Source of the DNA: Stegostoma tigrinum
Taxonomy: Eukaryota
Assembly (NCBI RefSeq): GCF_030684315.1
Contig: NC_081396.1
Span: 2,108,001 to 2,172,000 of the forward strand
DNA: 64,000 bases
Direction of reading: 5' to 3'
The notes below the pieces were generated by a model, which saw nothing but the letters and a program-made list of their open reading frames with translations, did not search any database and was not told where the DNA came from. Position numbers and translations under genes: made by a program. Shown piece by piece: positions 798 through 64,000 of this stretch; within the stretch, counting starts at the first letter, position 1; the number at the start of each line of letters is the position of its first letter.

Positions 798-1699
798 CCA
801 ACTTGCTGGCTATCATAATCCTATCTCGAGGACGATGCGGTCTTTCCCGATGCATCACTTTCTACCAGATGACGATTGCAGTCACTGATTTTCTTGTCAT
901 CATCACTGCGGTAATCTTCAACCGAATCAGCCGCATCTACTTCCGACAAAGTGTTTTGTCGACCACTCCTGCGTGCACTTTCAGCGTTTTGCTGGCCTAT
1001 ATCATTCGGGATTGCTCAGTCTGGCTGACTGTCGCCTTTACCATTGACCGTTCAGTGGCCATCTGCTTCCAGAATTTGAAGACCAGATACTGTACAGTGA
1101 AAACTGCATCTTTGGTCATCGGAATAATCTCTGCCCTGTGTTGCATCAAGAACATCCCATCCTACTTTAGCTATGAACCCTTATACATCTTCGATGAGGT
1201 ATCCTGGTTTTGCAATGTTAAAGCCAACTTCTATATTTGGCCACCTTGGCAGGCTTATGATTGGTTCTTCCAGATCTAAACTCCTTTTCTCCCATTCTTT
1301 GTCATTCTGATGCTTAATACCCTGACAATGAAACAAATCCTAGCAGCCAACAGAGCTCGCAGCAGATTCCAAGGTGCAGAGATGCAACAAGACCCAAAGA
1401 TGGCCAACCGCAGGAGGTCTATTATTCTTCTGTTCACCATCTCTCTCAGCTTCCTCCTACTGTGGGCACCTCTTGTCGGGCATTTCATTTTTACACAGCT
1501 TAAAGCGAAGAGCTACTTTGGTGGTCTGAATTTCAGTGATCCGCAGTATATCTTCCAAGAGATGGCCAACGTTCATCACTTACAAAGTTCCAGCAACAAC
1601 GTCTTTATTTATGCAATCTCTCAGAATACGTTTCGACAGGAGCTAAAGATCATTCTGATATACCCCTTTGTCATCCTCATCAATTGTTTTAAGCAGTGA
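798..1699 (+). pseudogene. GPR139-like class A GPCR, main exon, copy A (in-frame TAA at 1277-1279; exon 1 lies upstream of the window)
   Basis: Acceptor ctctcacag at 797. Reads ANLLAIIILSRGRCGLS...CSVWLTVAFTIDRSVAIC...RRRSIILLFTISLSF...NNVFIYA. ORFs 803-1279 and 1310-1699 share a frame and are split by one stop. Confidence 0.88.
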
Positions 1700-2019
1700 G
1701 AGGAGAGATTGCAATAGAGAGAGTGCATGAAGCTGAACGTAGATAAAGACCAAAGTACGCTATCAGAAGCTGATAAGATGCCACTGACTGCTCCGAAACC
1801 AACACAGGCGATTGTTTAATCCGAGATGATTGGCACTAATACAGAAAACTACCAGAAGATAGAGATGTACAGCCAGAGACATACACAGAAACCCGGGCTC
1901 CACGGTGTATCCTCAGTGGGTAGATACAGTTTTATTTCATCACATGGACTGTTCGAGGATTCTTTCAGCATTACATTGACAGTTTAAAACCATACTCGTC
2001 AGAAAGCACGTATTTATGT

Positions 2020-3400
2020 CTGTGCATTGACGTGATTACACTGATTTTTCGGAGAACTTTACCAGCCGCTCGGAGGACAACCAATATGTTGTCATTATTT
2101 AATGATGGTGAGAGGGATAAACAATAAATTTTCAGACCAGTCTCTCTAAGTTCAGTGGTGGGGAAAATTCCGGAATCAGTTCTGAGAGATAGAAATAATG
2201 TGCACTTGCAGAAGTAGAGATTAACTGAGAACAGAGAGCAGGGTTTTGTGAAGGGGAGGTCACAGCTGACCCAATTGATTGCATTATTCGAAGCGGTGAA
2301 TAAGTGTGTAGAGGTGAGCATTGCATTTGGTAGGGCTACTTGGACTTCAGTGAGGAGTTTGATCAGTTCCCCCATAGGAGACTCAGAACCAAGGTACGAA
2401 TCCGTGGAATTTAAGGAGTTTTCGCTGTTTTGATGCAGAAATGAGTGAGGGACAGAAACCAGTGTGTGTGCTTCAGTGTGCCCTTGAGACTGCTAGCCTG
2501 TTTTTAGTGGGTTCTGCAGGGATTAATGTTGGAAAGCTTCTGACTGCAGCTTATATAAACGTTTTAAACATGAGTGTTCCGGGTGTTGATCAGTGATTTC
2601 TTGAATGATTTGGAAATTTGTGACATGAAAAATGGCGGGAAAGATAGTCTCAGATTTGAGGAGGAGATTGATGGGAGTGTCAGATCGACTGACCAGAGGC
2701 AAAGGAAATTCGAACTTCATAAATGTGAGATATTGCACGGGGACAGGAAAAAAAACAAGGCAAGTGAACACATGAGGACTCATAGGACATTGGGAAGTGC
2801 TAAATACCAGTGAAATATTTGCATGCATGACCATTGATCCTTTTATGTGATGGGGTAGTTACAAAAGTAAATGGGATACTTGCTTTTATTAACAGAATTG
2901 TAGAGCTTAGAGTAGTGAGGTCATAACGAAATTGCATTATGATAGGCCACAGGTAAATTATTGGTTTCAGTTTTTGAATCCTTAATAGAGAAGGAATTGA
3001 TTTGCTCTCGAGATTTTGCAGAGGAGATTTGGTACCTGTTGACTGGGCTGGGGGTTCTTAGATATAAAGAGAGTATGGATTTCCTTTGGAGTAGAGAGGA
3101 CTGGGGCATAAAGGTCGGCATATATGAAATTATAAGGGTTGTGGGTCGAAAGGACAGGCATGGATGTTTCCGATTGTTTGACATTTCAATGCATGAATGT
3201 CAGGTAAAACGGAACAGGTACAGAAAAAATGCGAAGAAATTTTTCAGCCAGAGGATTTTCAGAACCCAAATTGTCTTGGAGGGTGTCAAGCCAAAAGTCT
3301 TGATAATATTCGATAAATGTTTCCACATGCACCTTTGATCGAAAGTCATTCAAGGCAATTGAAAAAACTGTTCAAACGTGAGATTGGAATAGTTCAATGC
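2020..3400 (+). mobile_element. Degenerate CR1-type LINE (RT to 3' end)
   Basis: Broken frames read RPVSLSSVVGK..ES.LRDR, GFVKGRS.LT.LI, DFS and KFFSQR. Boundaries approximate. Confidence 0.8.
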
Positions 3401-3519
3401 TCCTCATTGAACAGTACAGTTTTGATGGTGCAAAAGACGTTTTGCTGTGCTGTAAACGGCTTTGACTGTATGACTCTGTATATCAATATGCGTGTGACTG
3501 TGTCTAAACGTCTGTTTGT

Positions 3520-3561
3520 GCACTCTCGTGCGTGTGTGCGTGTGCGTCTGTGTGTGTGTGT

Positions 3562-3610
<49 letters not shown>

Positions 3611-3735
3611 TGTGTGTGCGTGTGTTTTTCTTTGTCTTTGTGAGAGAGCAAAATAGAGAGAGAGAGAGAGTGGGGAGAGAGATGGGTAGATAAATAGAGA
3701 TAGATAGAGAGAGAGAGAGACAGAGAGAGACAGTC
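3520..3735. repeat. (TG)n microsatellite followed by (GA)n/GATA repeats
   Basis: Directly visible; the homologous TG tract in copy B is the N run 40501-40651. Confidence 0.97.
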
Positions 3736-4786
3736 TCTCTCAGAGTTGGCTGAGATAAAAGTTACAACGGTTAGAAAGCTTCATCTGGGGTGGCTGTCGA
3801 TAGATCAATCAGGCCACAGTTTATTTCCTGATTATATCACCTGATATATTTTGTGGTCCAGTGCCAGACTCTGGCATATTTTAGCTGCTACACTCGCACA
3901 ACTTGGCACAAAAAGGCCAGCAAAATATAGGGCCATACAGTGCATATTTATTATGCTCCTGAAGCTCCTCTGTGAAATAAATTTTAGAAAATTTTTTCTT
4001 CATCCCCGACACTTGTGGAGGATTCCAATAATGTAAATGTGGGCTGCATGTCTGGGGGCTGTATGTATCAGTGTAATATGCAACATCTCTATGTTGTCTC
4101 AGAGGAGCAGGTCATCGATGCCACTGTCACTTCTGTTCCAAAGTTTTTGAGCAGAGCGATGATTCACAGAGTCTCCGTTATTTGGATCTGAAACAATTGA
4201 GAATTTATGCTTCCTTTTTTGCCTCTAATAAATAAGAACACTGGGTTCATGGAATGCCCAAGTTTGGTGCTTTTATAGAGAACTCAGAGTCACGTTAACA
4301 TCACGTACTTGTCAGAAACCCGCCACAAATAAACCAAATGATGAGTATGTGCAATGTGAAATGACTGATGGGTGTTGGGAGGTGATAATTCTAAATTGCA
4401 CACTCACACGTTGCTGAGATCTCTGCGCATGTGTTCAGTTGACCTTCCTGTGTTGCCATTGGTTCGGTGAGACAGCAGTTGGACCTCAGTGGATGGAAAC
4501 AGCTTGAGATAGATTGCAGGCAGATCCCTTACACCCGACATCCAACTCAAATTTTCTCCCTCACAATACAAACACAGCACTCATTGGGAACAACAAATGT
4601 AAAAGTTTTACCACTGAATTAATCTCACACCTAAATATCTCAACTGCCTGCTCACTCACATCCACGCTCACAAGCAAGGGCAGTGTGGTGACTTGGTGGT
4701 TCGCACTGTTGCCCCACAGTGCTTAGAACACAGAACACAGAACAATACAGCACAGAACAGGCCCTTCACCCCTCAATGTTACCCTT

Positions 4787-4820
4787 GCTGACGTTTCGGG
4801 CCTAGACCCTTCATCAGAGA
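4787..4820 (-). ncRNA. Hammerhead-like motif, left arm of copy A
   Basis: Reverse complement of the 10171-10204 motif. Confidence 0.7.
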
Positions 4821-7800
4821 GGGGGATGGGGTGAGGCTTCTGGATTAAATAGGGAGAGAGTGGGAGGCAGACCAAAGATGGAGAGAAAAGAAGATAGGTG
4901 GAGAGAGTATAGGTGGGGAGATAGGAAGGGGAGAGGTCAGTCCAGTGAAGACGGACAGGTCAAGGAGGTGGGATGAGGTTAGCAGGTCGGAGATGGGGGT
5001 GCAGCTTGGGGTAGGAGGAAGGGAAGCGTGAGAGGAAGAACAGGTTAGGGAGGCAGAGACAGGTTGGACTGGTTTTGGGATGCAGTGGGTGGAGGGGAAG
5101 AGCTGGGCTGGTTGTGTGGTGCAGTGGGGGGAGGGGACGAATTGGGCTGGTTTAGGGATGCGGTGGGTGAAGGGGCGATTTTGAAGCTGGTGATGAACAC
5201 ATTGATGCCGTTAGACTGCAGGGTTTCCAGGCGGAATATGAGTTGCTGTTCCTGCAACCTTCGGGTGGCATCATTGCGGCACTGCAGGAGGCCCATGATG
5301 GGCATGTCATCGAAAGAATGGGAGGGGGAGTGGAAATGGTTTGCGACTGGGAGGTGCAGTTGTTTGTTGCGAACCGAGCGGAGGTGTTCTGCAAAGCGGT
5401 CCCCAAGCCTCCGCTTCGTTTCCCCAATGTAGAGGAGGCCACAACGGGTACAGTGGATGCAGTATACCACATTGGCAGATGTGCAGGTGAACCTCTGCTT
5501 AATGTGGAAAGTTATCTTGGGGCCTGGGTTCGGGTGAGGGAGTAGGTGTGGGGGCAAGTGTAGCATTTCCTGCGGTTGCAGCGGAAGGTGCCGGGTGTGG
5601 TGGGGTTGGAGGGCAGTGTGGAGCGAACAAGGGAGTCACGGAGAGAGGGTTCTCTCTGGAAAGCAGACAGAGGTGGGGATGGAAAAATGTCTTGTGTGGT
5701 GGGGTCGGACCTCTATACCCAGAATATTCAGACCCTTCAGCAGCATTTCTCCCTGCGAGTCCTGAAACAGACACTCGTAGCCATGCGCCGGCGCCTCCAC
5801 AGACTGCAATCCAGCCTGCCCCAGCTCAGAGCCTCCCTCTCCCAGAACTGCAAAGGGCCTCTGCTGTTTTTTATTCTCCGCAGGATCCACAGACTGAACA
5901 CCCAGTTTAACTCAGCTTTACTGGACACCAAAAATCGCAAGTACAACAAACTCACTGACCCCTGCCACCCACAAGAGGATTCCTGCGCCTCCCAAATCCC
6001 GAGTCTGTCCCTGCCCCTCCCCGGCCATGCACCCGCCGCCATTGACCATGAGGACACGGCCGGAGACTGCACCGATGACGTCACATCCGCCTCCGCCGGC
6101 CACACCACTTCCGGGACCGCGGCTGCAGTCACCACCTCCACTTCCAGTTACAACACCTCACACACCAGCCTCACCGCAGCTGCTGCCGCCCACCACGATA
6201 CTCCAACCGCCGACGGAAGACAGCCCACGGCCGATGCCGATGGAACCCTGCCCACGGCCGACGACCTCATCGGTCCGCCCACAACCTCCACAGCCAGCAA
6301 CCCCAGAGGAGACAGCCACACTGAACCCTGCCGCATCTTCACCATGCCCCCAGACCTCCGACTGACTGAGGACGAACGGTCAGTCCTTAGTAAGGGGCTC
6401 ACCTTTGTCCCCCTACAACCACACATCAACGAATACCAGTCACGATTGGACATAGAGCATTTTTTCCGCCACCTTCGCCTCCAGGCCTACTTCTTCAAGC
6501 AGGAGCCTGAGCCTCCCTCCACTGACCCCTTCACCCGCTTCAAACACAAGTCCTCCTCCTGGACACCACCCCCAGGCCTCCTACCCTCCTTCGACCTCTT
6601 CATCTCCAACTGCCGTCGAGACATTAACCGCCTCAACCTCTCCACCCCTCTCACCCACTCCAACCTCTCCCCTGCAGAACGGGCAGCCCTCCCCTCCCTC
6701 CGCTCCAACCCCAACCTCACCATCAAACCCCAAGACAATGGTGGCGCAGTGGTAGTATGGCGCACTGACCTCTACATCGCCGAGGCCAGACGCCAACTCT
6801 CCAACACCACCTCCTGCCGCCCACTCGATCATGACGGGTGTGGTGGTGTTGGAGGGCAGTGTGGAGCGAACAAGGGAGTCACGGAGAGAGTGGTCTCTCC
6901 AGAAAGCAGACAGGGGTGGGGATGGAAAAATGTCTTGGGTGGTGGGGTCGGATTGTAGATGGCGGAGGTTTCGGAGGATGATGCGTTGTATCCAGAGGTT
7001 GGTGGGGTGGTGTGTGAAAACGAGGGGGATTCTCTTAGGGCGTTTGTGGCGGGGGCGGGGTGTGAGGGATGTGTTGCGGGAAATACTGGAGACGCGGTCA
7101 AGGGCGTTGTCGATCACTGTGGGGGGAAAGTTGCGGTTCTTGAAGAACTTGGATATCTGGGATGTGCGTGAGTGGAATGTCTTATCGTGGGAGCAGATGC
7201 GGCGGAGGCGGAGGAATTGCGAATAGGGGATGGAATTTTTGCAGGAGGGTGGGTGGGAGGAGGTGTATTCTAGGTAGCTGCTGTAGTCAGTGGGCTTGAA
7301 ATGGACATCGATTACAAGCTGGTTTCCTGAGATGGACACTGAGAGATCCAGGAAGGTGAGGGATGTGCTGGAGATGGCCCAGGTGAACTGAAGGTTGGGG
7401 TGGAAGGTGTTGGTGAAGTGGATGAATTGTTCGAGCTCCTCTGGGGAGCAAGAGGCGGCGCCGATACAGTCATCAAATGTACCGGAAGAAGAGGTGGGGT
7501 TTGGGGCCTGTGTAGGTGCGGAAGAGGGACTGTTCCACGTTACCTACAAAGAGGCAGGCATGGCTGCGGCCCATGCGGGAGCCCATGGCCACCCCCTTAG
7601 TCTGTAGGAAGTGGGAGGAGTCAAAACAGAAGTTGCTGATGGTGAGGACGAGTTCGGCTAGGCGGATGAGGGTGTCGGTGGAGGGGGACTGGTCGGGCCT
7701 GCGGGACAGGAAGAAGCGGAGGGCCTTGAGGCCATCTGCATGTGGAATGCAGGTGTATAGGGACTGGACGTCCATGGTGAAGATGAGGTGTTGGGGGCCA

Positions 7801-10170
7801 GGGAATTGGAAGTCCTGGAGGAGGTGGAGGGCGTGGGTGGTGTCACGGACGTACGTAGGGAGTTCGTGGACCAAAGGGGAGAAAATGAAGTCCAGATAGG
7901 TGGAGATGAGTTCGGTGGGGCAGGAGCAGGCTGAGACGATGGGTCGACCAGGTCAGCCACGGTTGTGGATTTTGGGAAGGAGATAGAAACGGGCCGTGCT
8001 GGGTTGGGGAACAATGAGGTTGGAGGCTGTGGGTGGGAGGTCCCCTGAGGTGATGAGGTCATGAATGGTGTTGGAGATGATGGTTTGGTGCTCGGGTGTG
8101 GGGTCATGATCGAGGGGGCGGCAGGAGGTGGTGTTGGAGAGTTGGCGTATGGCCTTGGCGATGTAGATGTCAGTGCGCCATACTACCACGGTGTCACCAT
8201 TGTCTTGGGGTTTGATGGTGAGGTTGGGGTTGGAGCGGAGGGAGGGGAGGGCTGCCCGTTCTGCAGGGGAGAGGTTGGAGTGGGTGAGAGGGGTAGAGAG
8301 GTTGAGGCGGTTAATGTCTCGAAGGCAGTTGGAGATGAAGAGGTCGAGGGAGGGTAGGAGGCCTGGGGGTGATGTCCAGGAGGAGGACTTGTGTTTGAAG
8401 CGGGTGAAGGGGTCAGTGGAGGGAGGCTTAGGCTCCTGGTTGAAGAAGTAGGCGTGGAGGCGAAGGTGGCGGAAAAACTGCTCTATGTCCAATCATGACT
8501 GGTATTCGTTGATGTGTGGTTGTAGGGGGACAAAGGTGAGCCACTAACTAAGGACTGACCGTGCGTCCTCAGTCAGTGGGAGGTCTGGGGGCATGGTGAA
8601 GATGCGGCAGGGTTCAGTGTGGCTGTCTCCTCTGGGGTTGCTGGCTGTGGAGGTTGTGGGCGGACCGATGAGGTCGTCGGCCGTGGGCGGGGTTCCGTTG
8701 GCTTCGGCCGTGGGCAGGGTTCCGCTGGCGTCGGCCGTGGGCGGGGTTCCGTCGGCGTCGGCCGTGGGCGGGGTTCCGTCGGCGGTTGGAGTATCGTGGT
8801 GGGCGGCAGCAGCTGCGGTGAGGCTGGTGTGTGAGGTGTTGTAACTGGAAGTGGAGGTTGTGACTGCAGCAGCGGTCCCAGAAGTGGTGTGGCCGGCGGA
8901 TGCGGATGTGACGTCATCGGTGGAGTCTCCGGCCGTGTCCTCATGGTCAATGGCGGCGGTGCATGGTCGGTGAGGAGCAGGGACAGACTTGGGATTTGGG
9001 ATGCGCAGGAATCCTCTTGTGGGTGGCAGCGGCCAGTGAGTTTGTTGTACTTCCGATTTTTGGTGTCCAGTAAAGCTGAGTAAAACTGGGTGTTCAGTCT
9101 GTGGATCCTGCGGACAATAAAAAACAGCAGAGGCCCTTTGCAGTTCTAGGAGAGGGAGGCTCTGAGCTGCAGCAGGCTGGATTGCAGTCTGTGGAGGTGC
9201 CGGTGCATAGCTGCGAGTGTCTGTTTCAGGACTCGCAGGGAGAAACTCTTCTGAAGGGTCTGAATATTCTGGGTATAGAGGTCCGACCCCACCACCCAAG
9301 ACATTTTTCCATCCCCACCCCTGTCTGCTTTCCAGAGAGAACTCTCGCTCCGTGACTCCCTTGTTCGCTCCACATTGCCCTCCAACCCCACCACACCCGG
9401 CACCTTCCCCTGCAACCGCAGGAAATGCTACACTTGTCCCGACACCTCTTCCTTCACCCCTATCCCAGGCCCCAAGATGACTTTCCACATTAAGCAGAGG
9501 TTCACCTGCACATCTGCCAATGTGGTATACTGCATCCACTGTACCCGTTGTGGCCTCCTCTACATTGGGAAACCAAGCGGAGGCTTGGGGACCGCTTTGC
9601 AGAACACCTCCGCTCAGTTCGCAACAAACAACTGCACCTCCCAGTCGCAAACCATTTCCACTCCCCCTCCCATTCTTTAGATGACATGTCCATCATGGGC
9701 CTCCTGCAGTGCCACAATGATGCCACGCGAAGGTTGCAGGAACAGCAACTCATATTCCGCTTGGGATCCCTGCAGCCTAATGGCATCAATCTGGACTTCA
9801 CCAGCTTCAAAATCTCCCTTTCCCCCAACACATTCCTAAACCAGCCCAGTTTGTCCCCTCCCCCCACTGCACCACACAACCAGCCCAGCTCTTCCCCACC
9901 ACCCACTGCATCCCAAAACCAGTCCAACTTGTCTCTGCCTCCCTAACCTGTTCTTCCTCTCACCGATCCCTTCCTCCTACCCCAAGCCGCACCCCCATCT
10001 CCTACCTACTAACCTCATCCCACCTCCTTGACCTGTGCGTCTTCCCTGGACTAACCTCTCCCCTCCCTACCTCCCCGCCTGTACTCTCTCCACCTATCTT
10101 CTTTTCTCTCCGTCTTTGATCCGCCTCCCCCTCTCTCCATATTTATTCCAGAACCCTCACCCCATCCCCC

Positions 10171-10204
10171 TCTCTGATGAAGGGTCTAGGCCCGAAACGT
10201 CAGC
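10171..10204 (+). ncRNA. Minimal hammerhead ribozyme-like motif of the Penelope terminus
   Basis: CTGATGA-a-GGGTCTAGGCCC-GAAA-CGTC: both core boxes, stem II and a palindromic ACGT stem III. Minimal hammerheads are an established feature of Penelope terminal repeats. Confidence 0.7.
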
Positions 10205-10941
10205 TTTTGTGCTCCTGAGATGCTGCTTGGCCTGCTGTGTTCATCCAGCCTCACATTTTGTTGTCTTGAATGTTTCATATAACCAGTCCAATGGAGCCCC
10301 GAACATCCTGCCAAGCTAAATGCTTTGCACACCCTGCACGATCTGTCAGCACCAAGAATCGTGCCCCACCAAGGCCCTGCACGATATCCCACTCTTCTCC
10401 ATTATGTTGATCAAGAATTGCTCTTCCACATGTTCTTATGAAAGAACGTAAGGTTAAATAAAAAATAAGAGCATGTGAAATATGAGCCGGAATCGACGCT
10501 TCCAGTGTGCCCCATTGAGATTAATTCACTGCGCAGATTACAGCATCCGGCTAAATTCACTTGGTCCACAGCAGGGCACACGGTGATCACGAAATTCAGA
10601 TCATGAGCCTTTTTTTCTGGAAACAGTGGCAGTCTGAGGATACGAAATGGGTGGAATACTCCAATTCGAGACGATCACACAACATAACGCCTGCTGTTTG
10701 AACTCCTCCAGTTCCAAGCCTGACTAATGCTGACCAATGTTTTTGTTTCTGTTCAAGGTTTTCAGACGGAAACGAAAAGCTTTACCCAACAGTTGTCAAC
10801 TTCTTGATCACAAGTCTGTTTTGTTTGATAAACACTACTGCATTTCCTAGCGTTCATGTTGTTCCCCACTCACACTTCCACATGACTAATTGTCTTACCT
10901 TCCTTGTTTTCACTTGCTGTGTGCTTGCCGCTACCTTTCAG

Positions 10942-11297
10942 AGATGAGTAATAGAGACTCGGTACCCCAGGCAAAGCAAAGAGTCCAAGCACAAGCAGAT
11001 GAAACTTCAACAATCGTTTGCTGTTACCCTGTGTCTAATTCAGCTGCGCTGTATGAAATGTTGTGGTACGGTCAGAACCCATAATAAGCATGTCAGTATC
11101 AGCTCACATTCAGCCGTTATGGATAGAATAAAAAGATTCCCTGCTCTGATCATTACAGTCGGAATCTCAATTCGACTGCAGGGAATTTTCAACTGCCAGT
11201 TAATGATAATTAATTTTCAACTGATTCATTTTCAAATGAATTATTATGCTCTGATATCAACAGTCTATTCGGTACACTCCAATCTCATACAAAAACA
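10942..11297 (+). pseudogene. TRAV: TCR alpha/delta V pseudogene 1A with degenerate 23-RSS
   Basis: Acceptor cctttcag, then MSNRDSVPQ...TIVCCY...MLWYGQNP** ...LMIINFQLIHFQMNYYAL. AACAGTC (11259-65), exactly 23 nt, ACAAAAACA (11289-97). Confidence 0.8.
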
Positions 11298-12712
11298 GAA
11301 CACCTATTAAAATCAAGGATTAGCTCAAGTAAATGCAAGTCATTGCTTGCTTGACAATCTATGCAGGGAATCATAAACAAACATGTACAGAGGGGCAAGC
11401 GTAGTCACTTCACGCACAGTCATTCAGTATGGTCATAATTGACCTGGTCACGTTTTCTACTCACCTCATCATTAATATTTCTCTCTCTTGGTTATCAAGG
11501 CTCAGGCCACTTCAACAAGAAAAATATGATCTGACTCTGCTTTGACTTACTCTTGGCAAAGAATAAAACTACAAACACTCACAATTATCCTTAATTTAAA
11601 ACGAAGAGTCAACAGCATTGCCTATTTCTGGTGCCACATTTAATCCGAACCAGGTAATTCAGCATTATTATTTTTCTGAAGGATTTTATTCACTGTTATT
11701 ATTTCACACCAATAGATGAACATTTTAATATAGGAAGCTAAATGCAGATGGTTTACGAACTGAATTTTCATTATAACAGCCAGTCTGCCTGCAGAAAATT
11801 CCTCTGAGCCCCCTGATCGCCAGTGCACCAAATAACCACGAAACCAGCATCTGCTGTTGCAATCTATATTGTCTTATGTTGATTTGTTAAAACTTCTTTC
11901 TTCATTCACGCTATGGACATTAACATTATTAATACATTTTTCCAGATCTAAAATCAAACGACACGGATTTCGTTTACAGTCCCACAAATTAAAAGATAAA
12001 ATAATAACGTCCGTCTGTGAAACTGAAAAAGCAAATCACTTGAAAATTATCGTGATTGCTGCTCTCTCCACCTTGCACCTTCAAGCATCCCCAATTCCGG
12101 CGGACGGAATGACCCTGATGCCAGAAACGTTTCTTCCTCAGTTTAAACTTCCATTCAGATAAAGTTAAAATACACTGTCACAATTACTGTAAACATATAG
12201 CAATGGAATGTCATACGTAATACCTGTGGTGTTTTGAGACCAGGTCACAGATTGTAAATGCAACCATTACTTTTTTCAAAATATCAGCTGATTGCAGCTC
12301 AGAGTCACCACGCTGATGTCAAATTTAGAGACTGCAGAACACCCCGAACNNNNNNNNNNNNNNNNNNNNNNNNNNNNNNNNNNNNNNNNNNNNNNNNNNN
12401 NNNNNNNNNNNNNNNNNNNNNNNNNNNNNNNNNNNNNNNNNNNNNNNNNNNNNNNNNNNNNNNNNNNNNNNNNNNNNACTTGTTGACTTGATTTGATCAA
12501 CATCATAATTGTTCAGCCGATCTACTTTTCTGCTGAGCCAGAGGATTGGCTGCACGACAGAGCGATACAACCAGGAACAATGGGAGAATGTCTCAAACCG
12601 TTGCTTGGCATTGTTTCTATTCTCACTTAATATCTCATATTGGAAAAAGATTATTTTTCACTTAAAATTTGCTCCTAATTTAACAGTAACAGTGACGATA
12701 ATGTTGACAAAT

Positions 12713-42972: not shown

Positions 42973-42975
42973 CAC

Positions 42976-51622: not shown

Positions 51623-52007
51623 ATGAGGCTGGTGTTGGCTGTTGTTTCTTTCTTACTGCATTTTATGCTTGATTGGAGACAGCAGAACCCATTGGAACAA
51701 CCATTTGTTGAAATAACTGTAGAGGAGGCAAACAAAAGTCACACTAAGTTGTATTTTGTATTCAAACACGAAAGCATACTGGTACATTCAACGTCCCAGG
51801 CAGCCTCCACAGTTACCATTGAGGCCATTTGAGTGCAGTGTGTCCACAGAAAACTGCCTTACAGATCTACTTTCTTCTTTGCTTTATAAAATTGACAAGA
51901 TCACCGAACTAACAATCAGCACAATTTCCTCCTCCAAAAGTGTTATGTATCACTGTGCCCTGCAACCTACACCGATGCAGACATATCATGCATTCCACAC
52001 AAGAGCC
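51623..52007 (+). pseudogene. TRAV: TCR V pseudogene 2B
   Basis: Duplicate; retains WYIQRPRQPPQL (9 nt missing in copy A). Confidence 0.85.
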
Positions 52008-53488: not shown

Positions 53489-53787
53489 CCATGGAATCCC
53501 TACAGTATGGAAACAGGACCTTGAGTCCAACAAGTCCACGCCAACACTCAGAACGTCCCACCCAGTTCAATCCCCATAAAACCCACCTGTCCTACACATT
53601 CCTGAAAACTTTGGAAAATTTAGCATCGCCAATCCACCCAGGCAGCTCATCATTGGACTGTGGCAGGATAAAAGAGCACCCACGCAGACAAGGAGAGAAA
53701 GTGCAAACTTCACTCAGACAGTCGCCCAAGCTTGGAATCGAACCCGGGTTCCTGGCGCTGGCAGTAGTGTTAAACAATGAGCCACTG
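53489..53787 (-). mobile_element. Shark SINE, copy B
   Basis: Duplicate of 14570-14868. Confidence 0.75.
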
Positions 53788-54508
53788 GAATTGCCCCCGT
53801 TCCAAACAAAATGTCATGTCATGGAATATACTGCAGGAAGCAGCTACATGATAAATTTCCTCTCGACTGAGGCTGAGTCTGGACAAAACATGCAGGGAAT
53901 GAATATGAATGTAAGTATGGTCCAAGTGGGCTTTCTCTCCCTCTGACTAATCCCCGCAGTGTTGGAAATTTGCCATTTGGTGGTGAATTAAAACAAGATC
54001 AAATTAAGACATCTCCACACTGGTAGCAAAAGAACAACAGCATTGTGTAATGACTTACATGAAACATGAAACAACCTGAGCGGCTTTGACACCGCAGATT
54101 TTACGAGGATGTTTCCACTTCTTGGAGAATCTAAAACTTTCGGACAAGTTTCAAGACATCACCAACCTCAGTGACCCCAGGTAACTGATTTGAGCGAGGT
54201 CGTACCGTGTCCTGAATCCAACAGTGATTGGTTGGCTGTTAAGATAAGAAGTGAGAAATCAACCAATCACATCATGGTGGGACGTCCCTCTGTTTCCAAA
54301 GAAGTGAAGGTTATCCGTGGTCTGAGCTCAATGTCTTAGATGAGACGAAAACTGTCGGAGTCTTTCGGTGTACTGGTGTTGTCATAACTCACAGCCAGAA
54401 GGTTCTGCGTTTGAGTCACGTACAATAGGTGTAAGATAAGATTTCTAAACAGATTAAACAGAAAATATTAAGACAAAGTTCCATCTTTTTTGTTTTTAGT
54501 TTGGTCAG

Positions 54509-54959
54509 ATGAAAACTGATGTCATGGGTACCCTGAGAACATTACTGATAATCGTTACTATTCTGCATGGTGAGGCTGAACTAAAACCAGCACTGAGTAT
54601 TCTTTTGGTTACATTTACTGACATGCTTTCAACAACTTTTTCAAATTTGTTACAGGAACGAGTAGTCAAGATTCAGTTTTTCAGAGCCCACCTCATTTAT
54701 CGGCAGAGGAAGGACAAATGGTAATGTTGAACTGTAGTTACGAATCGTCGGGTGCTCCTATTCTCTTCTGGTACGTCCAGTATCCTGGGGAAGCTCCGAG
54801 ATATTTACTGAAGAGGTACAAGAATGAAGACGCGGACAGCTCACCAGATTTCCATGACCGGTTTTCTGCCAATTTGGACAAAGTCAATAAAGTGGTTCCT
54901 TTGAGAATTAATGAAATCCGTCTGTCTGACTCAGCCATCTATCACTGTGCTATGAGTAA
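54509..54959 (+). CDS. TRAV: Apparently functional TCR alpha/delta V segment, copy B: leader exon to 54569, V exon 54656-54959
   Basis: Same as copy A except R>H and S>I in FR3. Confidence 0.95.
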
Positions 54960-54998
54960 CACACTGATACAGAGACCCAGACAGCCCGAACAAAAACC
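54960..54998 (+). other. 23-bp-spacer RSS
   Basis: CACACTG + 23 nt + ACAAAAACC. Confidence 0.96.
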
Positions 54999-55926
54999 TG
55001 AAAGGCTCTCTTCCCTCCCTTGTCTGTATCAGATCTATAACTTTTACTACGAATTGTTAATATGATCAAAAACACAGTACAAAGAGCACATCACATTTTG
55101 GAACTCTTTCGATTGTGCAGAATGCAGGTCATTCAACATAAACTGCCTGCTTCAAGCAGCTGCGAGTTTTATTCATGGTCAGCGAGCAACTCGTTTAATA
55201 GAAAGTTGTGGTAGTGTTACCATAACAGTTTACCATTACCCATCAGTAACTGAAATCAAAGATAAGCTGCATTGAAAGAAAACACCCGATGGACAATTCT
55301 ATTTTGCACAGAGCGTTCGTGTGTGGAATGAATTGCCAGCAAATGTGGGTACAGTAACAGTGTTTAAAAGACATTTGTTTAAACACTTGGATGATGAAAA
55401 AAAGTGATTAGGGATATAGGACAAGCACAGTCAGTTGGGAAAAGTTTAGTTTCGGATTACGCTCGACTTAGACAGTTTGAAACGAAGGGTTTGTTTTCGA
55501 GCCATGTCAGTCGGTTACTCTAATTGAATACAAAAGCAGTTTCACTATCATTAACTGCTCCAAAGCCGCTTCGTTGTTCAGTCAAGTTAATTTCATTCCA
55601 AAATTGATAGATCAATGGATGCTAAAGGAAACAATTGTCGTAAAGCTGTCAAGTTTGTGAGAGTTGTACAAACTTCACTGAGTGCAACGGCAAGTTCAGT
55701 GAACTAAATGACCTTCTGCAGCTCCTGTTTTCAACGTTGTATTGACAATAGATCTGACGTAATGGACTGGAGAACAAAGCAACTGTGAGATGATTGGAGG
55801 CACATTTGCGAATCTGTCAGAAATATCCATCTGGCAGGGAGACAAGATATGACTCAATGTCAGCTCTGAGATGAGCCAATTCAGCTTCATCTCGCTCTCT
55901 GCATTTCTGCCATCAGTTCTGCAAAC

Positions 55927-56458
55927 TTGTCAACCCTTATTTTTTCCTCATCCCTCACTGCTGTAGCCCTTTTAACTGGTAAGATCATAAGTTGAAAAAT
56001 GCAAACCTTTCATCGACACTCGTCTTATCAGCATTTCTCTCTATTTTCAACAAATTCCCTGGCCTTGATGATATTAATTAGAATAAAACACAATTGCGGG
56101 CCTTTATATAAAAATTCCTTCTTTTTTATGTAGATGTTAAATGTGCAGACTCTGTATCACAGAAGCAGATTAAAATGATACAGTTTGAAGGAGACTTAGT
56201 GACGATTAATCTCAGCGGTTCTGCCTGAGCTGAAAACTGTTGCTTACAATTGTATCGTCAGGATATTGGTAAATCTCCTACATTCCTTTACTACATCCAT
56301 ACTTTTGGCGATGTTTCCAGGTCAAAATGGCGTTGGACTTAGGTTTTCTGCATTTCTGGACATTTCGGAAACTGAGGAGAATTTCACCATTGGTGAGCTG
56401 TGGCTGTCTGACTGCAGTCCATGACTGTGGGCGGAAAAACACTGCAGAGACAAAAACC
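55927..56458 (+). pseudogene. TRAV: TCR V pseudogene 4B
   Basis: Duplicate of 17009-17540. Confidence 0.88.
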
Positions 56459-59400
56459 AAAATGAACTTTGTATTAAAACATTATTGCAACGGTCGGAAA
56501 GTGAGAAAACTCTGGACAAACTTCAGTTTTATAAATATTACCAAAATGAACTGAATTCATATCAATCTAGATCGTTGGTAAGCCAAGAGCCACAGATGCA
56601 ACATTGAGTAAAGTGGCTTCTGATCTCTTAAGATTGCATACATTCCAAATACAAATTGAAAGTTGTGATTCGAGAATGTGCTCCATTTTGTAAATTAGAT
56701 GTATTAGAAAAGCAATTCTCCCCGAATTATCTGACATGGTGAATCAACAGTTCACAAAGGGACACTAAACAAAGTTCACTTGGTCGTACGAATGATGTAG
56801 GATGAAAAATGATCTCAAAACTACCATTTGAATTCACGAACCAGCTAAAGCCACAGTGCAGGTCTGGCTTTCTCAGCTTTTCCCGTAACCTGAGGTTTGG
56901 TGACCACCAGGAGAACCAACACCAGTAGTCTCTCGAAGTAAAGAACACCTCTGTGGTTCTCCAGGACTGTACACTTTTATTTACATATTTGGTAAAAGGA
57001 GAAGGAAATGAAAAGTATCATGGAATGCTCTGGACAAGGAGAACAAAGAGTTTGCTTTTATATGGACTTGTATTTAATGGTTTCAGATAACTCAAAGGGG
57101 TTCTAATATTTTGTCGCAAACATGAGCATCAAGTTTTCACTTTCGATTTTCTATACAGTTGGCTACTTGATAATCTGTATCGGAACCCTGAACACACCAC
57201 AGATATCCCAATTCAATGTTCTTTTTTTCTCTACCTCCGTGGTCACCAGTCCCTTATGCTACTTTGGAGTATACCCTATCCACACTTTCGATCATGAATC
57301 CATACTTCTTGATGTCTGCAGGTGCCTTTAACATTGAACGGTATTCAATCAGATTATTTTAATGATGCAGATATTACCCAAATGGCAAGCTGCTCAATGC
57401 TGATATTTCAAACTAAAACATACTTCCAACTTTCTTGTGAATTTCACTTTCGAAATAACGATAAATTGTATGGCTGCTTCCAGAACAGTTGTGAAAATTC
57501 TCAGAAATTCCCAAGAAAAACGCTGTCATTTCATTCCCTGGAAAGTTGATACAATTATCAAAACCAGTGTTCGGTGTGAACGATTTCACATCTTGTTGAT
57601 TTGGATTGTGCTTGGTCTTCGCATGCACATCTAAGTGTCTCACCTGCTGTTGCAAAGACGTCCGAATAGGCAGCAGCTGTGACCCAGAAACTTTCAGTCG
57701 TTATTGCAGAAGGGTTTATTTTTAGTTTTCTCTCTCTCGTTTTCGAGGCTAATTTGGACAATAATAGATCGCGGTATCAGACAGCTGCAACTCCGAGATG
57801 GTTAATTGGTGCAACTTGTCTGCTAGCTCAACTGTGTCAGAAAACCTGGTCTGAGGGAAATATGCTTTAAATGAGTCTCCGTCGCTTGTGCTCCTCCAGA
57901 GTATGAACTCTGGCAGTCTTCCTGGGTTTGATATAATGAGTAATAGCTTTGGCAGTTTAGGTGCAGTTTAAAGCCATGTATTTTACCTCTGCCTGTGTGA
58001 GCAAGGAATCCCACAGTGTAAAGAGTTTCCATTGCTCAGATGTGAAAAGTGCGATTTTAAAAAATGCTAGATTAAATATTGAAGTGATGATGAGAGTTCA
58101 CAGTCACCCGTCCAGAAAACAAACAAAAAAAGTTTGCAATTGGAGCCCCAAGAAAATCGCTTTAGGCCACCTGGCCCATTTGTGTGTGTGTCAGCCTTCC
58201 CCACTTCCAGTCATACTAAAAGCAAATCCTTCCATCTACTTTGTTCTCGTGGGCATGTCGAGATTACATTTAAACGTCTCATTGCAGTTCTCCTCAACTC
58301 CTCGTTATGCCGCTCAAGCAATATTTGATGAAAACTGTGGCTGAAGATGTTTCTCCTGAATTCCTTATTTGATCTATTCGGGAACAAAAATCTGAAACCT
58401 CCTTCAGGGAAGCATCCTCTCAAAGTCTACCCTGTCATCATGTTTTTTTCGTCATTTAAACACGTATTCCAGATAACTCACTTGTCTTCTCATTAACAGA
58501 AAAACAAAGAATGGGGTATAAGCACGGATTCCGAGTTGATGTTATTTTCAATGCTGATTGATCGCTGGAAATAGCTTTATAGGTGTCACAATAGTCCTTC
58601 TGTAAGAATCTGCTCACAATATCTCAAGTCCATCCAAAAAACAGGCCATTCTCCCTTTAATACGAATACTTTGATTTTGTTTCAAATTTGTTCACAGAGA
58701 AAGTAAATCTGAATGAAAGCACTAAACTTCTTACCGACAATGAAGTTCACGTATATCAGAGTGGGAATGAAGAGTTGCATCACTCTGGGATTCGAGAGGC
58801 CTTCATGTACCTCGGTAACTGATAGACCATAGAGCAACAAAAACTGCAAGAATTGGCTGAGATTCTTCTGATGTCACGTACTGAAGAAAATGCAATGTAA
58901 TGAGCTCAGATCATTGCACCAGATTTTTCTGATACCAATTCGGTAACCACAAAGCCTGTGTTTATTTTGGAGAACTGTGATATTGCGAATACATTTCACT
59001 GACCAGAGAGAAAGCCGAGTAAATGTAGATAGATTGTTTCTATCTGAGTTGAAAAACAGTGAGATCTCTAACTGAGATATAGCTAGCTCACAAACTGACT
59101 GGAGCGACATTTCACTCTCGAATTGACATTAAAGATGTTGGATCTCCAGTTAATGAGAGAGACAGATTGCTCCCTCTACTTTAGAGATATATTGTTCTTT
59201 TATAGAACTGACAGACATTTTGATGTCTTACTATCCAAACTGCTTTTACGTGTAGGAATTTCGGTCGTCCAAGAAACAAGATAAAATGAATTGATTTGGA
59301 AAAATAATACAGCTTTTTTTAAATGATTTGGATCTTATTATACTGTATAAATCTCAATATCGGGGACAATGGAAGTACAATCAGTGTAAACTTTCAGGAA

Positions 59401-62400
59401 AAAAAAGATATTCATATAATGGAAATTATCTGCCAAATTGCGGAATGTGAGAAAAAGCTATGTGAATGTAACTGATTACCCCACTCTTTCAGAGAGCAGG
59501 CATAATAAAACGTTAGAATGGCCTCAATCTTTATTAAATTTGACTCTGATTCTTGGTTATTTATCCCTTCTCTAACTATTTGCTACTCAGTGTCTCTGAC
59601 ACTAAGGGAACACGTCGGCTACAGCTGTCTCAAAATCCATTCGCCTCGGATATAGATGAAGTGCATTACAAACTTTCTGTTCTCAGACAGAGCAGCAATT
59701 TCATTCAGGACCATGTCTGTTGCAGTCTTGCATTCAGTTCCGTTTATTGCTTTCACTCTGGCCCACTATCTCTGCTTTGTATTACTTGGGAGATTGTTGC
59801 AACGATCACTATTTGTTGTTCAGTGGAGCCATGATGTGCTAGTGTTGGGCTGAGGTGGACAAGTTTAAAATATATAACACCAGGTGACAGTCCAAATGGC
59901 TTATTTGAAATCACAAGCGTTCTTAGCGCTGCTTCTTCATCAGTTGCAGTGAAGAGAAGTACACAGGCACAGAGTAATCAAAATATCACACGAAAGGAGT
60001 GAGTGGAGTGTTGGCAGACTGGATAAGTCTCTGCAGGTGATAAAAAAAAGTCAGTCGGTGTGAATAAAGTAGCAACAGCTGAAAAAAATGTGAACGGTTA
60101 AAGAATAATCCGATTAATTGGGACAGAAAGATTGCTTCAAACAATATTAGAATTATGTGGTGCTGAAGACCAATGAAATGAGTGGAATAACATGATAGGT
60201 ACGAAGGTCGCATGTCGAGAGTCTAACCAAAGTAACAAGTGATCTAAAATTGTGAAAATTAATTAAGATAGTGATCATAACAAGTCGTCGAGATGATGGC
60301 GTCAGAACAGAGCAGTAAGGAAGATTTTGCAGATGTGGAACAGTGTGGTATGATTACATGAAGAGTGGCATGAACTCAAAAACACGGTTGAGGCTGTATT
60401 TACGTGTACAAAACTTTGCTGTGAGTTTCTGCTCAGCAATACAGCATTGTCAGGTATCTCAAAAGCGACCTTGGATGAGGCTTATTAGAAGATCAGATGC
60501 TAATAGTCATTGACCATTGACGCATCCCCTGACTGGTGGATGGAGTTGGGAGGTCGGTTGGGGGGGTGGCATTCCAGTCTGTTGATTGATCTGCAGTGCC
60601 CATTCATCCGTTGGCAGAAAGTCTGCATGCTGTTGCCAATATACAATTCTTCAGGGCGTCTTTGCATGCAGCGTCTGTTTTATTTGACAACATTGACCAA
60701 ATCACATGAGTGTCTGTCGTGCATGTGATGGCTGCTGTTGCCATGTGTGACAGCCGAATCCATTTCGACTATCTCTGAAATAATTTTGAAAAATGGAGAC
60801 ACAACATTGTTTGTCGACATTTCTTCTGTAACACTGAACTATCTTTCCTAAAAGCCTATCGTCCAGATCAGTGAGTTTCTTTACACCGACAGACAGTTCA
60901 CTCCCTCCCAGCCTCCAAGCACGACTGGTGACACAAGGCCGTGAAGTAAGACCACTTCGACTCTTGCACTCCACAATTCCTGACGTTGTTGCTCAGGGTT
61001 TTGAGGAAAGAGCTTTGCCCTTAGTTAATTTGATTTGATTTGGTTTCACTGGAGGGAGCGATCACCAGCAGTGTCATTTGAAGGTCAGTGGCTGGACATT
61101 GAAGTGCAGGTGAGGGACAAAGAAAAATCAACAAAAAGAGCTAGAAATCTCTAATTCACTGTTTTTAAGGATGGTAGAACCTGAAAACCACTTTTGTTTG
61201 CGAATTAAGTATATGTGTCTCACGAACGTAGTAGAGCCAAGTGAAGATGATGATCGATGAGTTTGGGGCAGTGAGTATTGTCTACATGGACATCAGTAAG
61301 GCCTTTGACAAAATCCATGGAGACAAAATCCACTGCTGCATCCTTCTTGATCTTCTTCTTCACTTCTCTCTACCAAGTTGGTGAGACACGACCTCGCCTT
61401 CACAAAACCATACTGCCTCTCGCTAATATGCCCACTGATCTGCAGTTGGGAGTAATTCCTGCCTTGAAGAATACTCTCCAATAATTTGCCGGCCATTGAA
61501 GTAAGGCTCACACGCTCGTAATTAGATGGATTAACTCTCGCACCCTTCTAAAACGACGAAACAACTTTGGTTATTCGCCAGTCCTCTGTGATCTCCCCTG
61601 TAGCCAGTGAGAAGACAACTATTTCCCTCAAAGTCCCAGAAATTTCCTCCCTTGCTTCTCTCGGTATTCTGTTGTGTATCCTGCCAGGCCCTGGGGACTT
61701 GTCTCCCTTCAAGTTTTACAATATCCCCAGATACCTCCTCACTTTTGCTCTCAACATGACCTCAACTTCAGACCCTTCCCCAGACTCATCATCCACCATG
61801 TCCTTCTCTGTGATGAATACTGACGTAATGTACTAATTTAATATCTCGCTGACTCTCTTTGGATCCACACTTAAATTCCCTTTCCAGGCCTGGACTGAGC
61901 CAATCCTCTGCCTGGGTACCTTATTGCACTTTACGCACGGTTGAAAATCCTTGGTATGTTCTTTATTGCTTTTGGCAAAAGTCTTGTTATCCTTTTAGCT
62001 CTCCTGACTCCTTGCTTAAGCTTATTTTGACTTGCCTTGTCTTCCAAACTTGCTTCATGTGTTCCCAGCCTCCAAGCCTTCATAAATCCTTCAGAACTGA
62101 CGCAAGTGAAATTTTTTGGGTGTTATTCTGTACTGAGTGGTCGAGCAGAGCACAAAAGAAGGTCGTGAAAGTTAGAAGGCGAAGGAGATCAAAGGAGGCT
62201 GAGAACATTTGGATCAGAGATACGGAAAGTTGGTAACAGCAGAAAAGAACATACAAACATGGAGTGCTACCTATGTGTGTGTGTAAGGATGGTTCCAGGC
62301 ATAGAGCGGGGGAACCACAACAGAAAGAAAGAGAATTCCAGCAGTGCACAACTTGATGGTCGACAGAAGTTCAGGTGTGAAATGGAAATTGACCGTAGTT

Positions 62401-63558
62401 CGGGATAAAATATTCCTGACAATGTAAGGGCCTGTGGAAACATAAGCTGGCAGGCTAGTAGTATGTGGGAACGAAATTAGCAGCGATGCAAACCTCATTT
62501 CGGTAAAATCACGAGAATAAATATTGAAATGCGAAAGAGAGATGAAACACAAACATCATTAAAAACATAGTAAATTAGATAAAGACAATTAAACAGACGC
62601 CCCCATTGTGAGCTTGCCATGTTTCAGCACGGTGGTGACGAAGTGAATCTCTTCCCACAGTCCGTGGTGACAAAGTGATTCTCTTCCCACAATCCGTGCA
62701 GGTGAAGAGTGCCTTCCTGGGTTGACAGTACCAATGCTATTTCTGCAACAATTTGATTGAATTGAATTGAGTTCATTCCTACATACTTCAACATTTCTCC
62801 ACGTTAAGACTGTGTTTCTGTTTCGACAGATCAATCATTTGACTGAAGACTTGTTGAAACAAGAAACGAATGGGCAGTTTCTCACAAATTTGAACGGGGC
62901 TTTGTCCTCCCGTGTTCCAAAACAGATGACTTCCAAATAATGATATAATAGGCGACTTCACCTGATCCTGTTGGAACGTTTCGTCAATTTTCAATCGATC
63001 CGTCAATTTCCGATCTTCCCCTTCTTATTAACTGTGAAAATCATTTTAAACAGAAGATCAAAACTTCTGATGTTTTAATATATTTTGCTAGAAGCAACCA
63101 GGAAGTTCTGAACAAAAATAAATTGGCTTTCAACGTTTACACTGCTTTGTCTGATCAGAGGTTGCCAGATCTATTGCGTTTCATATCTCTATTTTTTTCT
63201 GTTTGTTTTATTTTATGAAAATGGGATATTAATACCGATGATGTAGACAGAGGTGAGTAGTGCGCAGAATAGTAAAGCTGGCGCAAAAGAGAGCAATTAA
63301 ATAAAATGAGGCGGGTAAACTGTTGTTGATAGCGATTCAGGGAAGGAAATAAGCTGTTTCGATGAATTGGGGCTACGAATGGCTGAAAATGATCTGGCTC
63401 GATGCTCTGGTGTTTGCCTAAAGCCTTGTCCAGACACACAACGCATGTACAGTTTCGCCCCGCTGAGCATGGTGCTTTTTTCGTCCATTTTCAAAACTGA
63501 TCACATTCCATGAGCGATTCATTGAACAACTCCATCGGTCATAAATCCTAAATCTCTG

Positions 63559-64000
63559 TGTCAAGTTCGTTTTTGGAGACCCTCACGGATTTGCTGCAAT
63601 AACAAGACACTGACCTGTTTAGAAAAACACGAATCATTTTATTACAGAGCAAGTACAAGCTGTGGAGAATCACTGGACTGAACCCGGCACAGAGTGCAGA
63701 GTTTCGCAGGTAATTCTCCTCGAGCAGCGGATAAGTCCCCACTTTTCATACTTTACAAAAGACGTGATACATAAATCGATTTGACAATTTACAATGACAT
63801 GATGCATAAAACAATTACGACAATAGACAAAAACAGGATACCAAGCAATTATTACATCAACAACATAAAAGACCAGGATGCAGTATCGATTGCTCGTGAA
63901 GTAGCTGCCAATGCGAGGAGGCGATTTTGAGTTGTTGTCCGGGACAGGTTGTGATTTCAAGTTGCCAGTGTGTCTGGCTAGTTCAAAGTCAGTGCCCTGG
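63559..64000 (-). repeat. ERV 3' LTR, copy B (runs off the window)
   Basis: Nearly identical to 24641-25082. Confidence 0.92.

What the first reader, a model, noticed from the sequence alone, without database searches (positions are those of the whole stretch)
798..64000. Tandemly amplified cassette coupling a GPR139-like GPCR with TCR alpha/delta V segments
Seen: each ~37-39 kb unit has one two-exon GPR139-like receptor and 4-5 V segments, all on the same strand. Established: non-immune families are embedded in or beside TCR loci elsewhere (trypsinogens in TRB, olfactory receptors beside mammalian TRA/D), and GPR139-like genes are expanded in cartilaginous fish. Inference: the GPCR family and the V repertoire expand together here. 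If rearrangement is deletional, V-J joining would remove the downstream GPCR copies, giving T-cell clones different GPCR complements. Both visible GPCR copies are broken, so plain hitch-hiking is equally possible.
Basis: partly seen in the sequence, partly recalled or inferred. Interest (0 to 1): 0.8.

Follow-up and report, generated by a model that had tools for sequence, protein, structure and literature searches.

The report
Dead receptor copied with shark TCR-segments
In this shark DNA a block of at least 25 kb occurs twice, each copy holding one intact T-cell-receptor V segment, five dead ones and a broken cell-surface receptor gene, and the receptor likely rode along as an already dead passenger, much as digestive-enzyme genes do in bird T-cell-receptor loci.

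Summary
The duplication is in the sequence: 22.6 kb aligned, 2.2% divergent, offset 37-39 kb. Each copy has one GPR139-like receptor gene and six V-like segments, not 4-5 on one strand. Four face +, two face -, and only one is intact (leader, open frame, 23-bp RSS). Both receptors share one stop, copy B adds a frameshift, and A versus B dN/dS is 0.93, so the gene was likely dead before it was copied. Contigs from related animals mostly lack that stop, but their closest copy carries a different one. Intact close relatives occur in epaulette and bamboo sharks, and accession order suggests the family sits on the TCR alpha/delta chromosome in epaulette and white sharks. Best reading: an ordinary V-region homology unit with a passenger gene, like the duck PRSS2+V-beta unit. 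Clone-specific GPCR loss has no support here: the copies are dead, no J segment is in the window, and 15 of 23 epaulette V segments face opposite to C. The scan noted GPCR/V mixing before, elsewhere on this scaffold (e1-9161493, e1-9188581, e1-8593286). The receptor family itself, not described in the papers searched, is the more interesting object.

The parts
1..25082 (+). Copy A of the duplicated block (starts before the window)
   Evidence: self-BLAST; divergence by block
36988..64000 (+). Copy B of the duplicated block (runs past the window end)
798..1699 (+). GPR139-like GPCR pseudogene A, exon 2; premature stop at 1277-1279 (codon 160, Tyr in intact relatives)
   Evidence: (PF00001)
36398..36467 (+). 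GPCR B exon 1 (ATG, 23 codons, GT donor); matches the N-terminus of intact relative P0134
37786..38688 (+). GPCR pseudogene B, exon 2; same stop at 38265-38267 plus a one-base frameshift near 38560
3975..4190 (-). V0-A, heavily decayed V relic (weakest, 12.7 bits); limits approximate
10938..11270 (+). V1-A, V pseudogene with several stops; decayed 23-spacer signal lacking the leading CAC
12740..13060 (+). V2-A, V pseudogene, decayed signal; limits approximate
15606..16080 (+). V3-A, intact TRAV/TRDV-type segment: leader 15606-15651, V exon 15738-16041, RSS 16042-16080 (heptamer CACACTG, 23-base spacer, nonamer ACAAAAACC)
   Evidence: (V-set E 7e-17)
17206..17540 (+). V4-A, V pseudogene with stops and a frameshift
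18807..19100 (-). V5-A, inverted V pseudogene; 50% over 56 aa to a Chiloscyllium V domain (P0166); no signal left
40989..41204 (-). V0-B relic; limits approximate
49754..50085 (+). V1-B pseudogene; limits approximate
51650..51977 (+). V2-B pseudogene; limits approximate
54524..54998 (+). V3-B, intact: leader 54524-54569, V exon 54656-54959, RSS 54960-54998; two amino-acid differences from V3-A
56118..56457 (+). V4-B pseudogene
57731..58020 (-). V5-B inverted pseudogene
4787..10270 (.). Back-to-back Penelope-like retroelement copies in A (GIY-YIG domain, weak hit E 4e-4); the arrangement differs in B (43336-49082)
24641..30434 (-). Decayed LTR retroelement with an integrase domain; its two LTRs differ by 9.3%, while the LTR copy in B (63559-64000) differs from A's by 0.2%, so it predates the duplication

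Best explanation
This is a segmental duplication that copied a GPCR gene, six V segments and several retroelements together, likely inside the V-bearing part of a carpet shark's TCR alpha/delta (antigen-receptor complex) chromosome, and the GPCR was likely already dead and rode along as a passenger. Shown: the duplicated block, its contents and the lesions. Inferred: unequal crossing-over among similar blocks made the copies and left them mosaic (divergence falls from about 3% to 0.1% along the block). Also inferred: GPR139-like genes and V segments are old neighbours on this chromosome, so any large duplication there catches both, and each then follows birth-and-death. The only possible gain is a second copy of V3, which RAG would likely join to a J (or D) segment by deletion or inversion. 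At most a dead GPCR copy would then differ between T-cell clones as a result of these two units.
For: The same stop is at codon 160 in both copies. A versus B GPCR has 19 nonsynonymous and 6 synonymous differences, dN/dS 0.93, Fisher p=0.81 against neutrality. 5 of 6 V segments per copy are dead and mutually 34-47% alike. Retroelements were copied too, and the LTR element is older than the duplication. In coded runs of a related 'organism A' (2 samples, 1 study), contigs fall into classes of about 98-99%, 93-96% and 89-91% identity over both the V region and GPCR exon 2 (displayed records only). There, the 98-99% class lacks the window's stop but carries another stop 13 codons earlier in 3 of 4 runs, which points to repeated independent loss. 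Precedents: duck TRB has three copies of a PRSS2+V-beta1 homology unit (PMC5278385); chicken V-beta genes are duplicated with trypsinogens (PMC10055752); bovine TRBV homology units run 7-31 kb (PMC2685407); near-identical germline alpha/delta V segments occur in nurse shark (PMC5931798).
Against: The GPCR's closest relatives are intact and recently multiplied. The tree places copy A in a 16-row clade (SH-aLRT 100) of Hemiscyllium and Chiloscyllium proteins, and the nearest cluster has 10 members, so the lineage is not dead everywhere. Copy A alters only 5 of 85 highly conserved columns, a number reached or passed by 19 of 120 annotated relatives, so the loss is recent. In organism A the window's stop is absent from all covering depth in 3 of 4 runs (15.1 of 21.5 in the fourth), and the frameshift is likewise absent. 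A shared stop could also come from gene conversion after the duplication. The dN/dS test has only 25 sites. No J or C segment is in the window, so placement in the working locus is inferred.
Confidence: 0.68

Rival explanations
1. The block multiplied because extra GPCR copies were favoured (a chemosensory-type birth-and-death family), the V segments were the passengers, and the two copies seen here died afterwards or were homogenised with a dead copy.
For: Close relatives are intact and recently amplified in epaulette and bamboo sharks. Five of six V segments are dead. Related animals lack the window's two lesions in most covering contigs. A homeodomain-plus-O/E-like motif lies about 100 bases before exon 1 (pattern made after seeing the site, so weak).
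Against: A shared stop and neutral divergence since the A/B split. The closest copy in organism A has its own stop. The only intact gene in the unit is V3.
Confidence: 0.15
2. A and B are two haplotypes of one polymorphic locus placed end to end by the assembler (false duplication).
For: Part of the block differs by only 0.1-1%. No contig spans the junction. The whole genome was not available. Immune loci are often highly polymorphic (own knowledge).
Against: Much of the block differs by 2.5-4.8%, with different retroelement arrangements. Several identity classes of the same stretch occur within single samples of organism A. The substitution spectrum (225 transitions, 280 transversions) resembles that of natural differences in the reads (437 and 478 in run X1) rather than random error.
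Confidence: 0.1
3. One reading: GPCR and V segments form a selected cassette, and deletional V-J joining gives T-cell clones different working GPCR sets.
For: GPCR and V segments were copied together. The family likely lies among V segments on the AgRC chromosome in other sharks. Any gene between a used V and its J is lost in deletional joining (established mechanism, own knowledge).
Against: Both GPCRs are dead. V segments face both ways in the window and in published loci: 15 of 23 epaulette TCR V rows beyond the C gene and 5 of 9 stingray TCR V rows face opposite to C-alpha (counted by eye from Table S1), so many joins would be inversions that keep the DNA. No J segment is in the window. 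Mammalian OR genes sit among TRAV genes too (PMC4574546); I know of no T-cell role for them (own knowledge).
Confidence: 0.05

Closest known systems
Avian TRB homology units of a V-beta segment plus a trypsinogen gene (duck: three PRSS2+V-beta1 copies, PMC5278385, passages read; chicken: PMC10055752, passages read, citing Zhang et al. 2020, title only)
   Same: A non-immune gene and V segment(s) copied together as a tandem unit inside a TCR V region.
   Different: TRA/D rather than TRB; the passenger is an orphan GPCR and is dead in both copies; the unit is larger (at least 25 kb) and holds six unrelated V segments in both orientations.
Olfactory receptor genes among mammalian TRAV genes (human OR10G2, OR4E2; mouse Olfr1507-1509; PMC4574546, passages read)
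   Same: Class A GPCR genes lying between V segments of the TRA/TRD locus.
   Different: A different GPCR branch: the nearest solved structure is GPR139, and no olfactory receptor is among the 32 sequences matched. The passages read place the mammalian ORs at the 5' edge and do not describe them as part of duplicated units.
Elasmobranch antigen receptor complex, AgRC (Flajnik et al. 2025, PMC12227049; sections 6, 15, 19 and Table S1 read)
   Same: TCR alpha/delta V segments and pseudogenes scattered over megabases in both orientations.
   Different: The paper's text and both supplements never mention these GPCRs (figures not seen); Table S1 lists only antigen-receptor genes, psmb5 and VSIG1.
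GPR139 / GPR142 (human GPR139, PDB 7VUG and 9M42; binding site PMC5430874, abstract read)
   Same: Nearest solved relative of the family profile (E 5e-19, next receptor 3e-12); W6x48 and N7x38 are kept.
   Different: Only E 1e-4 for the single sequence; F3x33 is Tyr and H5x43 is Asp in the family profile (Phe in this clade); many copies per shark genome. 'GPR139' is an automatic label, not orthology.

Membership tests
Functional TCR alpha/delta V segment (V3) | Leader exon, intron with GT/AG, open V exon with the conserved Cys, Trp and Cys | tested here: met
Functional TCR alpha/delta V segment (V3) | 3' RSS with a 23-base spacer | tested here: met
   one mismatch in the heptamer, none in the nonamer, against the recalled consensus; 2 such sites in the window, one per copy
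Functional TCR alpha/delta V segment (V3) | Closest named relatives are TRAV/TRDV | tested here: met
   3 of 8 hits named TRAV, none named otherwise; most single-domain hits are TCR alpha, though multi-domain antibody constructs rank first; best shark match 56% to an unnamed Chiloscyllium model. Alpha versus delta not resolved.
Functional TCR alpha/delta V segment (V3) | Linked to D/J/C segments and found rearranged in transcripts | not testable with these tools
   no J segment in the window; no genome held
Functional V segment (V0, V1, V2, V4, V5) | Open frame and intact RSS | tested here: not met
   stops, frameshifts, decayed or missing signals
Chondrichthyan 'probable GPR139' receptor family | High similarity and placement inside the family tree | tested here: met
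   77-79% to Hemiscyllium and Chiloscyllium proteins; nested in a clade with SH-aLRT 100
Chondrichthyan 'probable GPR139' receptor family | Intact 7TM reading frame (working gene) | tested here: not met
   stop in TM5 in both copies, frameshift in B
GPR139 orthologues | High identity to human GPR139 | tested here: not met
   E 1e-4, 25 bits
GPR139 orthologues | Agonist-site residues F109, H187, W241, N271 | tested here: not met
   2 of 4 kept, 1 conservative, 1 changed (read from the printed alignment)
GPR139 orthologues | Activation by Trp/Phe; brain expression | not testable with these tools
   needs assay or RNA data
TCR V-region homology unit with a non-immune passenger | Direct repeat holding both V segment(s) and a non-immune gene | tested here: met
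TCR V-region homology unit with a non-immune passenger | Lies inside the working TCR locus | tested here: inconclusive
   indirect only: accession adjacency in other sharks and unchecked scan notes

The most novel reading that the evidence does not exclude
The elasmobranch TCR alpha/delta V region doubles as the breeding ground of a large, undescribed GPR139-related receptor family: V-region duplications multiply the receptors, and V(D)J joining removes intact, lymphocyte-expressed copies so that T-cell clones differ in their GPCR set.
Probability: 0.05. Interest if true: 0.85.

Novelty: new member of a known kind. Interest (0 to 1): 0.3.

Why it matters
As it stands, it extends a pattern known from bird TRB and mammalian TRA/D (non-immune genes among V segments, sometimes copied with them) to sharks. 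It is also a direct case of a GPR139-like gene and V segments being duplicated as one block. It flags a large shark receptor family that the recent AgRC description does not mention and that likely shares that chromosome in at least two shark orders. If the family proved chemosensory, it would parallel the olfactory receptors in mammalian TRA/D. If intact copies were expressed in T cells and lost by rearrangement, that would be a new kind of somatic variation, but nothing here shows it.

Tried and rejected
The whole genome was not held, so the scaffold, the J/C position and the unit count could not be examined. Sequencing-run search: no RNA holder listed; this is no evidence on expression. Bisulfite run X5 gave only 106 laid reads and was not used. 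Summed contig depth was not used as a copy number. Word-based protein searches with V3 found only 8 and 1 hits, none named as shark. A weak V-like score of 5.6 at 43031-43162 is within shuffle noise and was dropped. Apparent ORFs at 31410-31907 and 35425-35919 gave only sub-threshold Pfam hits, and nothing there scored above the controls with the V or GPCR profiles. A scan for 12-RSS plus FGxG found 8 loose signal-like sites and no J. The low transition/transversion ratio was considered as a sign of sequence error and rejected. The tree left out 4 of the 120 hits (1 unnamed, 2 EukProt models, and none other by design: P0081, P0092, P0095; P0001 was added) and used the quick method. Assigning each A/B amino-acid difference to one lineage was not done, so the order of events rests on the shared stop alone. 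Look-ups of earlier findings near the window, by sequence and by relatives returned nothing. The Atlas search only returned the same automatic family names and FMRFamide-receptor-like clusters. The species was not determined: the nearest proteins are from carpet sharks; earlier notes say zebra shark, untested here.
Full report
OBSERVATION. Self-comparison shows one long direct repeat: 1-25082 matches 36988-64000, with offsets of 36,987 to 38,918. Over 22,571 aligned bases there are 505 substitutions (2.2%). Divergence is uneven: 2.5-3% on the left, 4.8% in the Penelope-like block, 1.4% on the right and 0.2% in the last LTR; per kilobase it runs from 6.2% to 0. The stretch 25083-36987 is seen once, because its partner would lie outside the window. 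So at least 25 kb is shown to be duplicated, and a 37-39 kb tandem unit is inferred.

THE GPCR. Each copy holds one class A GPCR gene (PF00001); a profile of 120 relatives finds no other relic above the controls. Copy B has a 70-base exon 1 (36398-36467), a 1.3-kb intron and exon 2 (37786-38688); exon 1 of copy A would lie before the window. Both copies have the same stop at codon 160 of exon 2, where intact relatives have Tyr, and B also has a one-base frameshift near 38560. A and B differ at 19 nonsynonymous and 6 synonymous sites (dN/dS 0.93; p=0.81 against neutrality), as expected if the gene was dead when copied, though 25 sites is a small sample. The protein search returned 502 relatives; the best are Hemiscyllium proteins at 70-77%. 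A quick tree of 130 rows puts copy A in a 16-row clade (SH-aLRT 100) otherwise made only of Hemiscyllium and Chiloscyllium proteins, many of them near-identical recent copies. The name GPR139 is an automatic label. The single sequence matches human GPR139 at E 1e-4 and the family profile at 5e-19, ahead of other solved receptors. Of the four agonist-site residues named in the abstract of PMC5430874, W241 and N271 are kept, F109 is Tyr, and H187 is Asp or Phe. It is therefore a GPR139-related family, not a GPR139 orthologue. Its relation to the fish and coelacanth 'GPR210' sets of PMC6504862 (section read) was not tested.

THE V SEGMENTS. A profile built from 305 V domains finds six V-like segments per copy at 12.7-136.6 bits, against at most 5.9 in 8 shuffles and 4.6 in the reversed window. 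Four are on + (V1-V4) and two on - (V0, V5). Only V3 is intact: leader, GT/AG intron, open V exon and an RSS with a 23-base spacer. Its two copies differ by two amino acids and no silent site. Its named relatives are TRAV-type, and its best shark match is 56%. The six segments are only 34-47% alike, so they are an old mixed neighbourhood, not products of this duplication. No J segment was found. The block also holds Penelope-like elements and a decayed LTR element whose LTRs differ by 9.3%, while the A and B copies of one LTR differ by 0.2%, so the element is older than the duplication.

RELATED ANIMALS. Four coded runs (organism A, two samples, one study) hold 0.38 of the words of the V region. 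Their contigs fall into identity classes of about 98-99%, 93-96% and 89-91% both over the V region (24 displayed records) and over GPCR exon 2 (32 displayed records). This fits repeated duplication of both parts, but the contigs are short, do not link them, and the 88% cut-off hides older copies. The window's stop is absent from all covering depth in X2, X3 and X4 and from 15.1 of 21.5 in X1. B's frameshift is absent in full in X2-X4 and in 10.1 of 18.9 in X1. However, the near-identical class carries a different stop at codon 147 in X1, X3 and X4, and not in X2's one covering contig. This branch thus seems to have been lost more than once, while other copies are open at these sites.

WIDER NEIGHBOURHOOD. 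Flajnik et al. 2025 (PMC12227049; abstract, sections 6, 15, 19 and Table S1 read; supplementary PDF searched only; figures not seen) place the AgRC on chromosome 27 of white and epaulette sharks, with V segments over megabases. Neither the text nor the supplements mention these GPCRs. The four white-shark GPCR accessions I looked up (XP_041031385, 387, 402, 519; one 20.4-Mb sequence) lie 27-161 numbers from UrIg2 on chromosome 27 (XP_041031358). Two epaulette GPCRs (XP_060677699, 701) lie on a 5,136,515-base scaffold, which fits the TCR alpha scaffold whose last listed V ends at 5,118,634. The closest relatives carry neighbouring accessions on both sides of UrIg2 (XP_060677870). This is inference from accession order and length, not a coordinate look-up. 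The hits cluster on one sequence in several species (6 of 6 in Cetorhinus, 10 of 12 in Rhincodon, 5 of 6 in Stegostoma, 7 of 11 in C. punctatum), but some lie on other, large chromosomes, so the family is not confined there. Earlier, unchecked scan notes report GPCR/V mixing from 0.74 Mb before to 3.1 Mb after this window. One of them found no joint copying; this window shows that it does occur.

HOW IT MOST LIKELY WORKS. Shown: a duplicated block with one intact V, five dead V segments, a dead GPCR and retroelements. Inferred: unequal crossing-over in a region where the two families are old neighbours. The uneven divergence suggests later exchange between copies. The possible gain is one extra V3. 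Established (own knowledge): RAG joins a 23-RSS V to a 12-RSS J or D by deletion if they have the same orientation and by inversion if not. In Table S1, 15 of 23 epaulette TCR V rows beyond the C gene (Ig-TCRV rows and one nested V left out) and 5 of 9 stingray TCR V rows face opposite to C-alpha (counted by eye), so deletion cannot be assumed. Even under deletion towards the right, use of V3-A would remove only the dead GPCR B from these two units.

COMPARISON AND NOVELTY. The arrangement works like the duck PRSS2+V-beta1 homology unit (PMC5278385, passages), the chicken V-beta/trypsinogen duplications (PMC10055752, passages) and bovine TRBV homology units of 7-31 kb (PMC2685407, passages). 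GPCR genes among TRAV segments are known in mammals (PMC4574546, passages), and near-identical germline V segments are known in nurse shark (PMC5931798, passages; supplements listed, not read). I found no paper on the shark receptor expansion or its link to TRA/D in five library searches or in term searches of PMC11979771 and PMC12294341. The library lacks most subscription papers, so this absence is weak.

VERDICT. Observation partly confirmed; hitch-hiking is the best reading (0.68); new member of a known kind; interest 0.3. The clone-specific GPCR idea remains possible only through intact copies elsewhere in the locus (about 0.05).

Noticed in passing
window 36291-36306 (+): A homeodomain-type TAATT next to an O/E(EBF)-like site about 100 bases before GPCR B exon 1: one match in the window, 0.05 expected, 4 of 100 shuffles reach it. 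The pattern was made after seeing the site and from a recalled consensus, so it is only a lead towards olfactory-type regulation.
   Followed up: partly
window 16042-16048 and 54960-54966: The V3 heptamer departs from the recalled consensus at one position. Several shark V gene models that read through their signal show the same Thr-Leu translation there, so it is probably a common shark variant.
   Followed up: partly
window 15738-16041 (+) and 18807-19100 (-): Chiloscyllium gene model P0166 joins a V3-like and a V5-like domain in one reading direction, whereas V5 is inverted relative to V3 here; this suggests a local inversion in one lineage.
   Followed up: no
window 4787-10270 and 41798-49082: Back-to-back Penelope-like copies differ between A and B (B has extra pieces and a 1.5-kb stretch absent from A) and diverge faster than their flanks (up to 6% per kb), suggesting continued rearrangement or conversion after the duplication.
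   Followed up: no
window 24641-30434 (-): Decayed LTR retroelement with an integrase domain and a primer-binding-site-like sequence beside the right-hand LTR; LTRs 9.3% apart.
   Followed up: partly
window 16000-25082 versus 54900-64000: A/B divergence falls from about 3% to 0.1-1% towards the right end, as expected from gene conversion or a mosaic of more than two units.
   Followed up: no
A versus B alignment and reads: Transversions outnumber transitions (280 versus 225; 478 versus 437 in run X1), unusual for vertebrate DNA by my recall.
   Followed up: no
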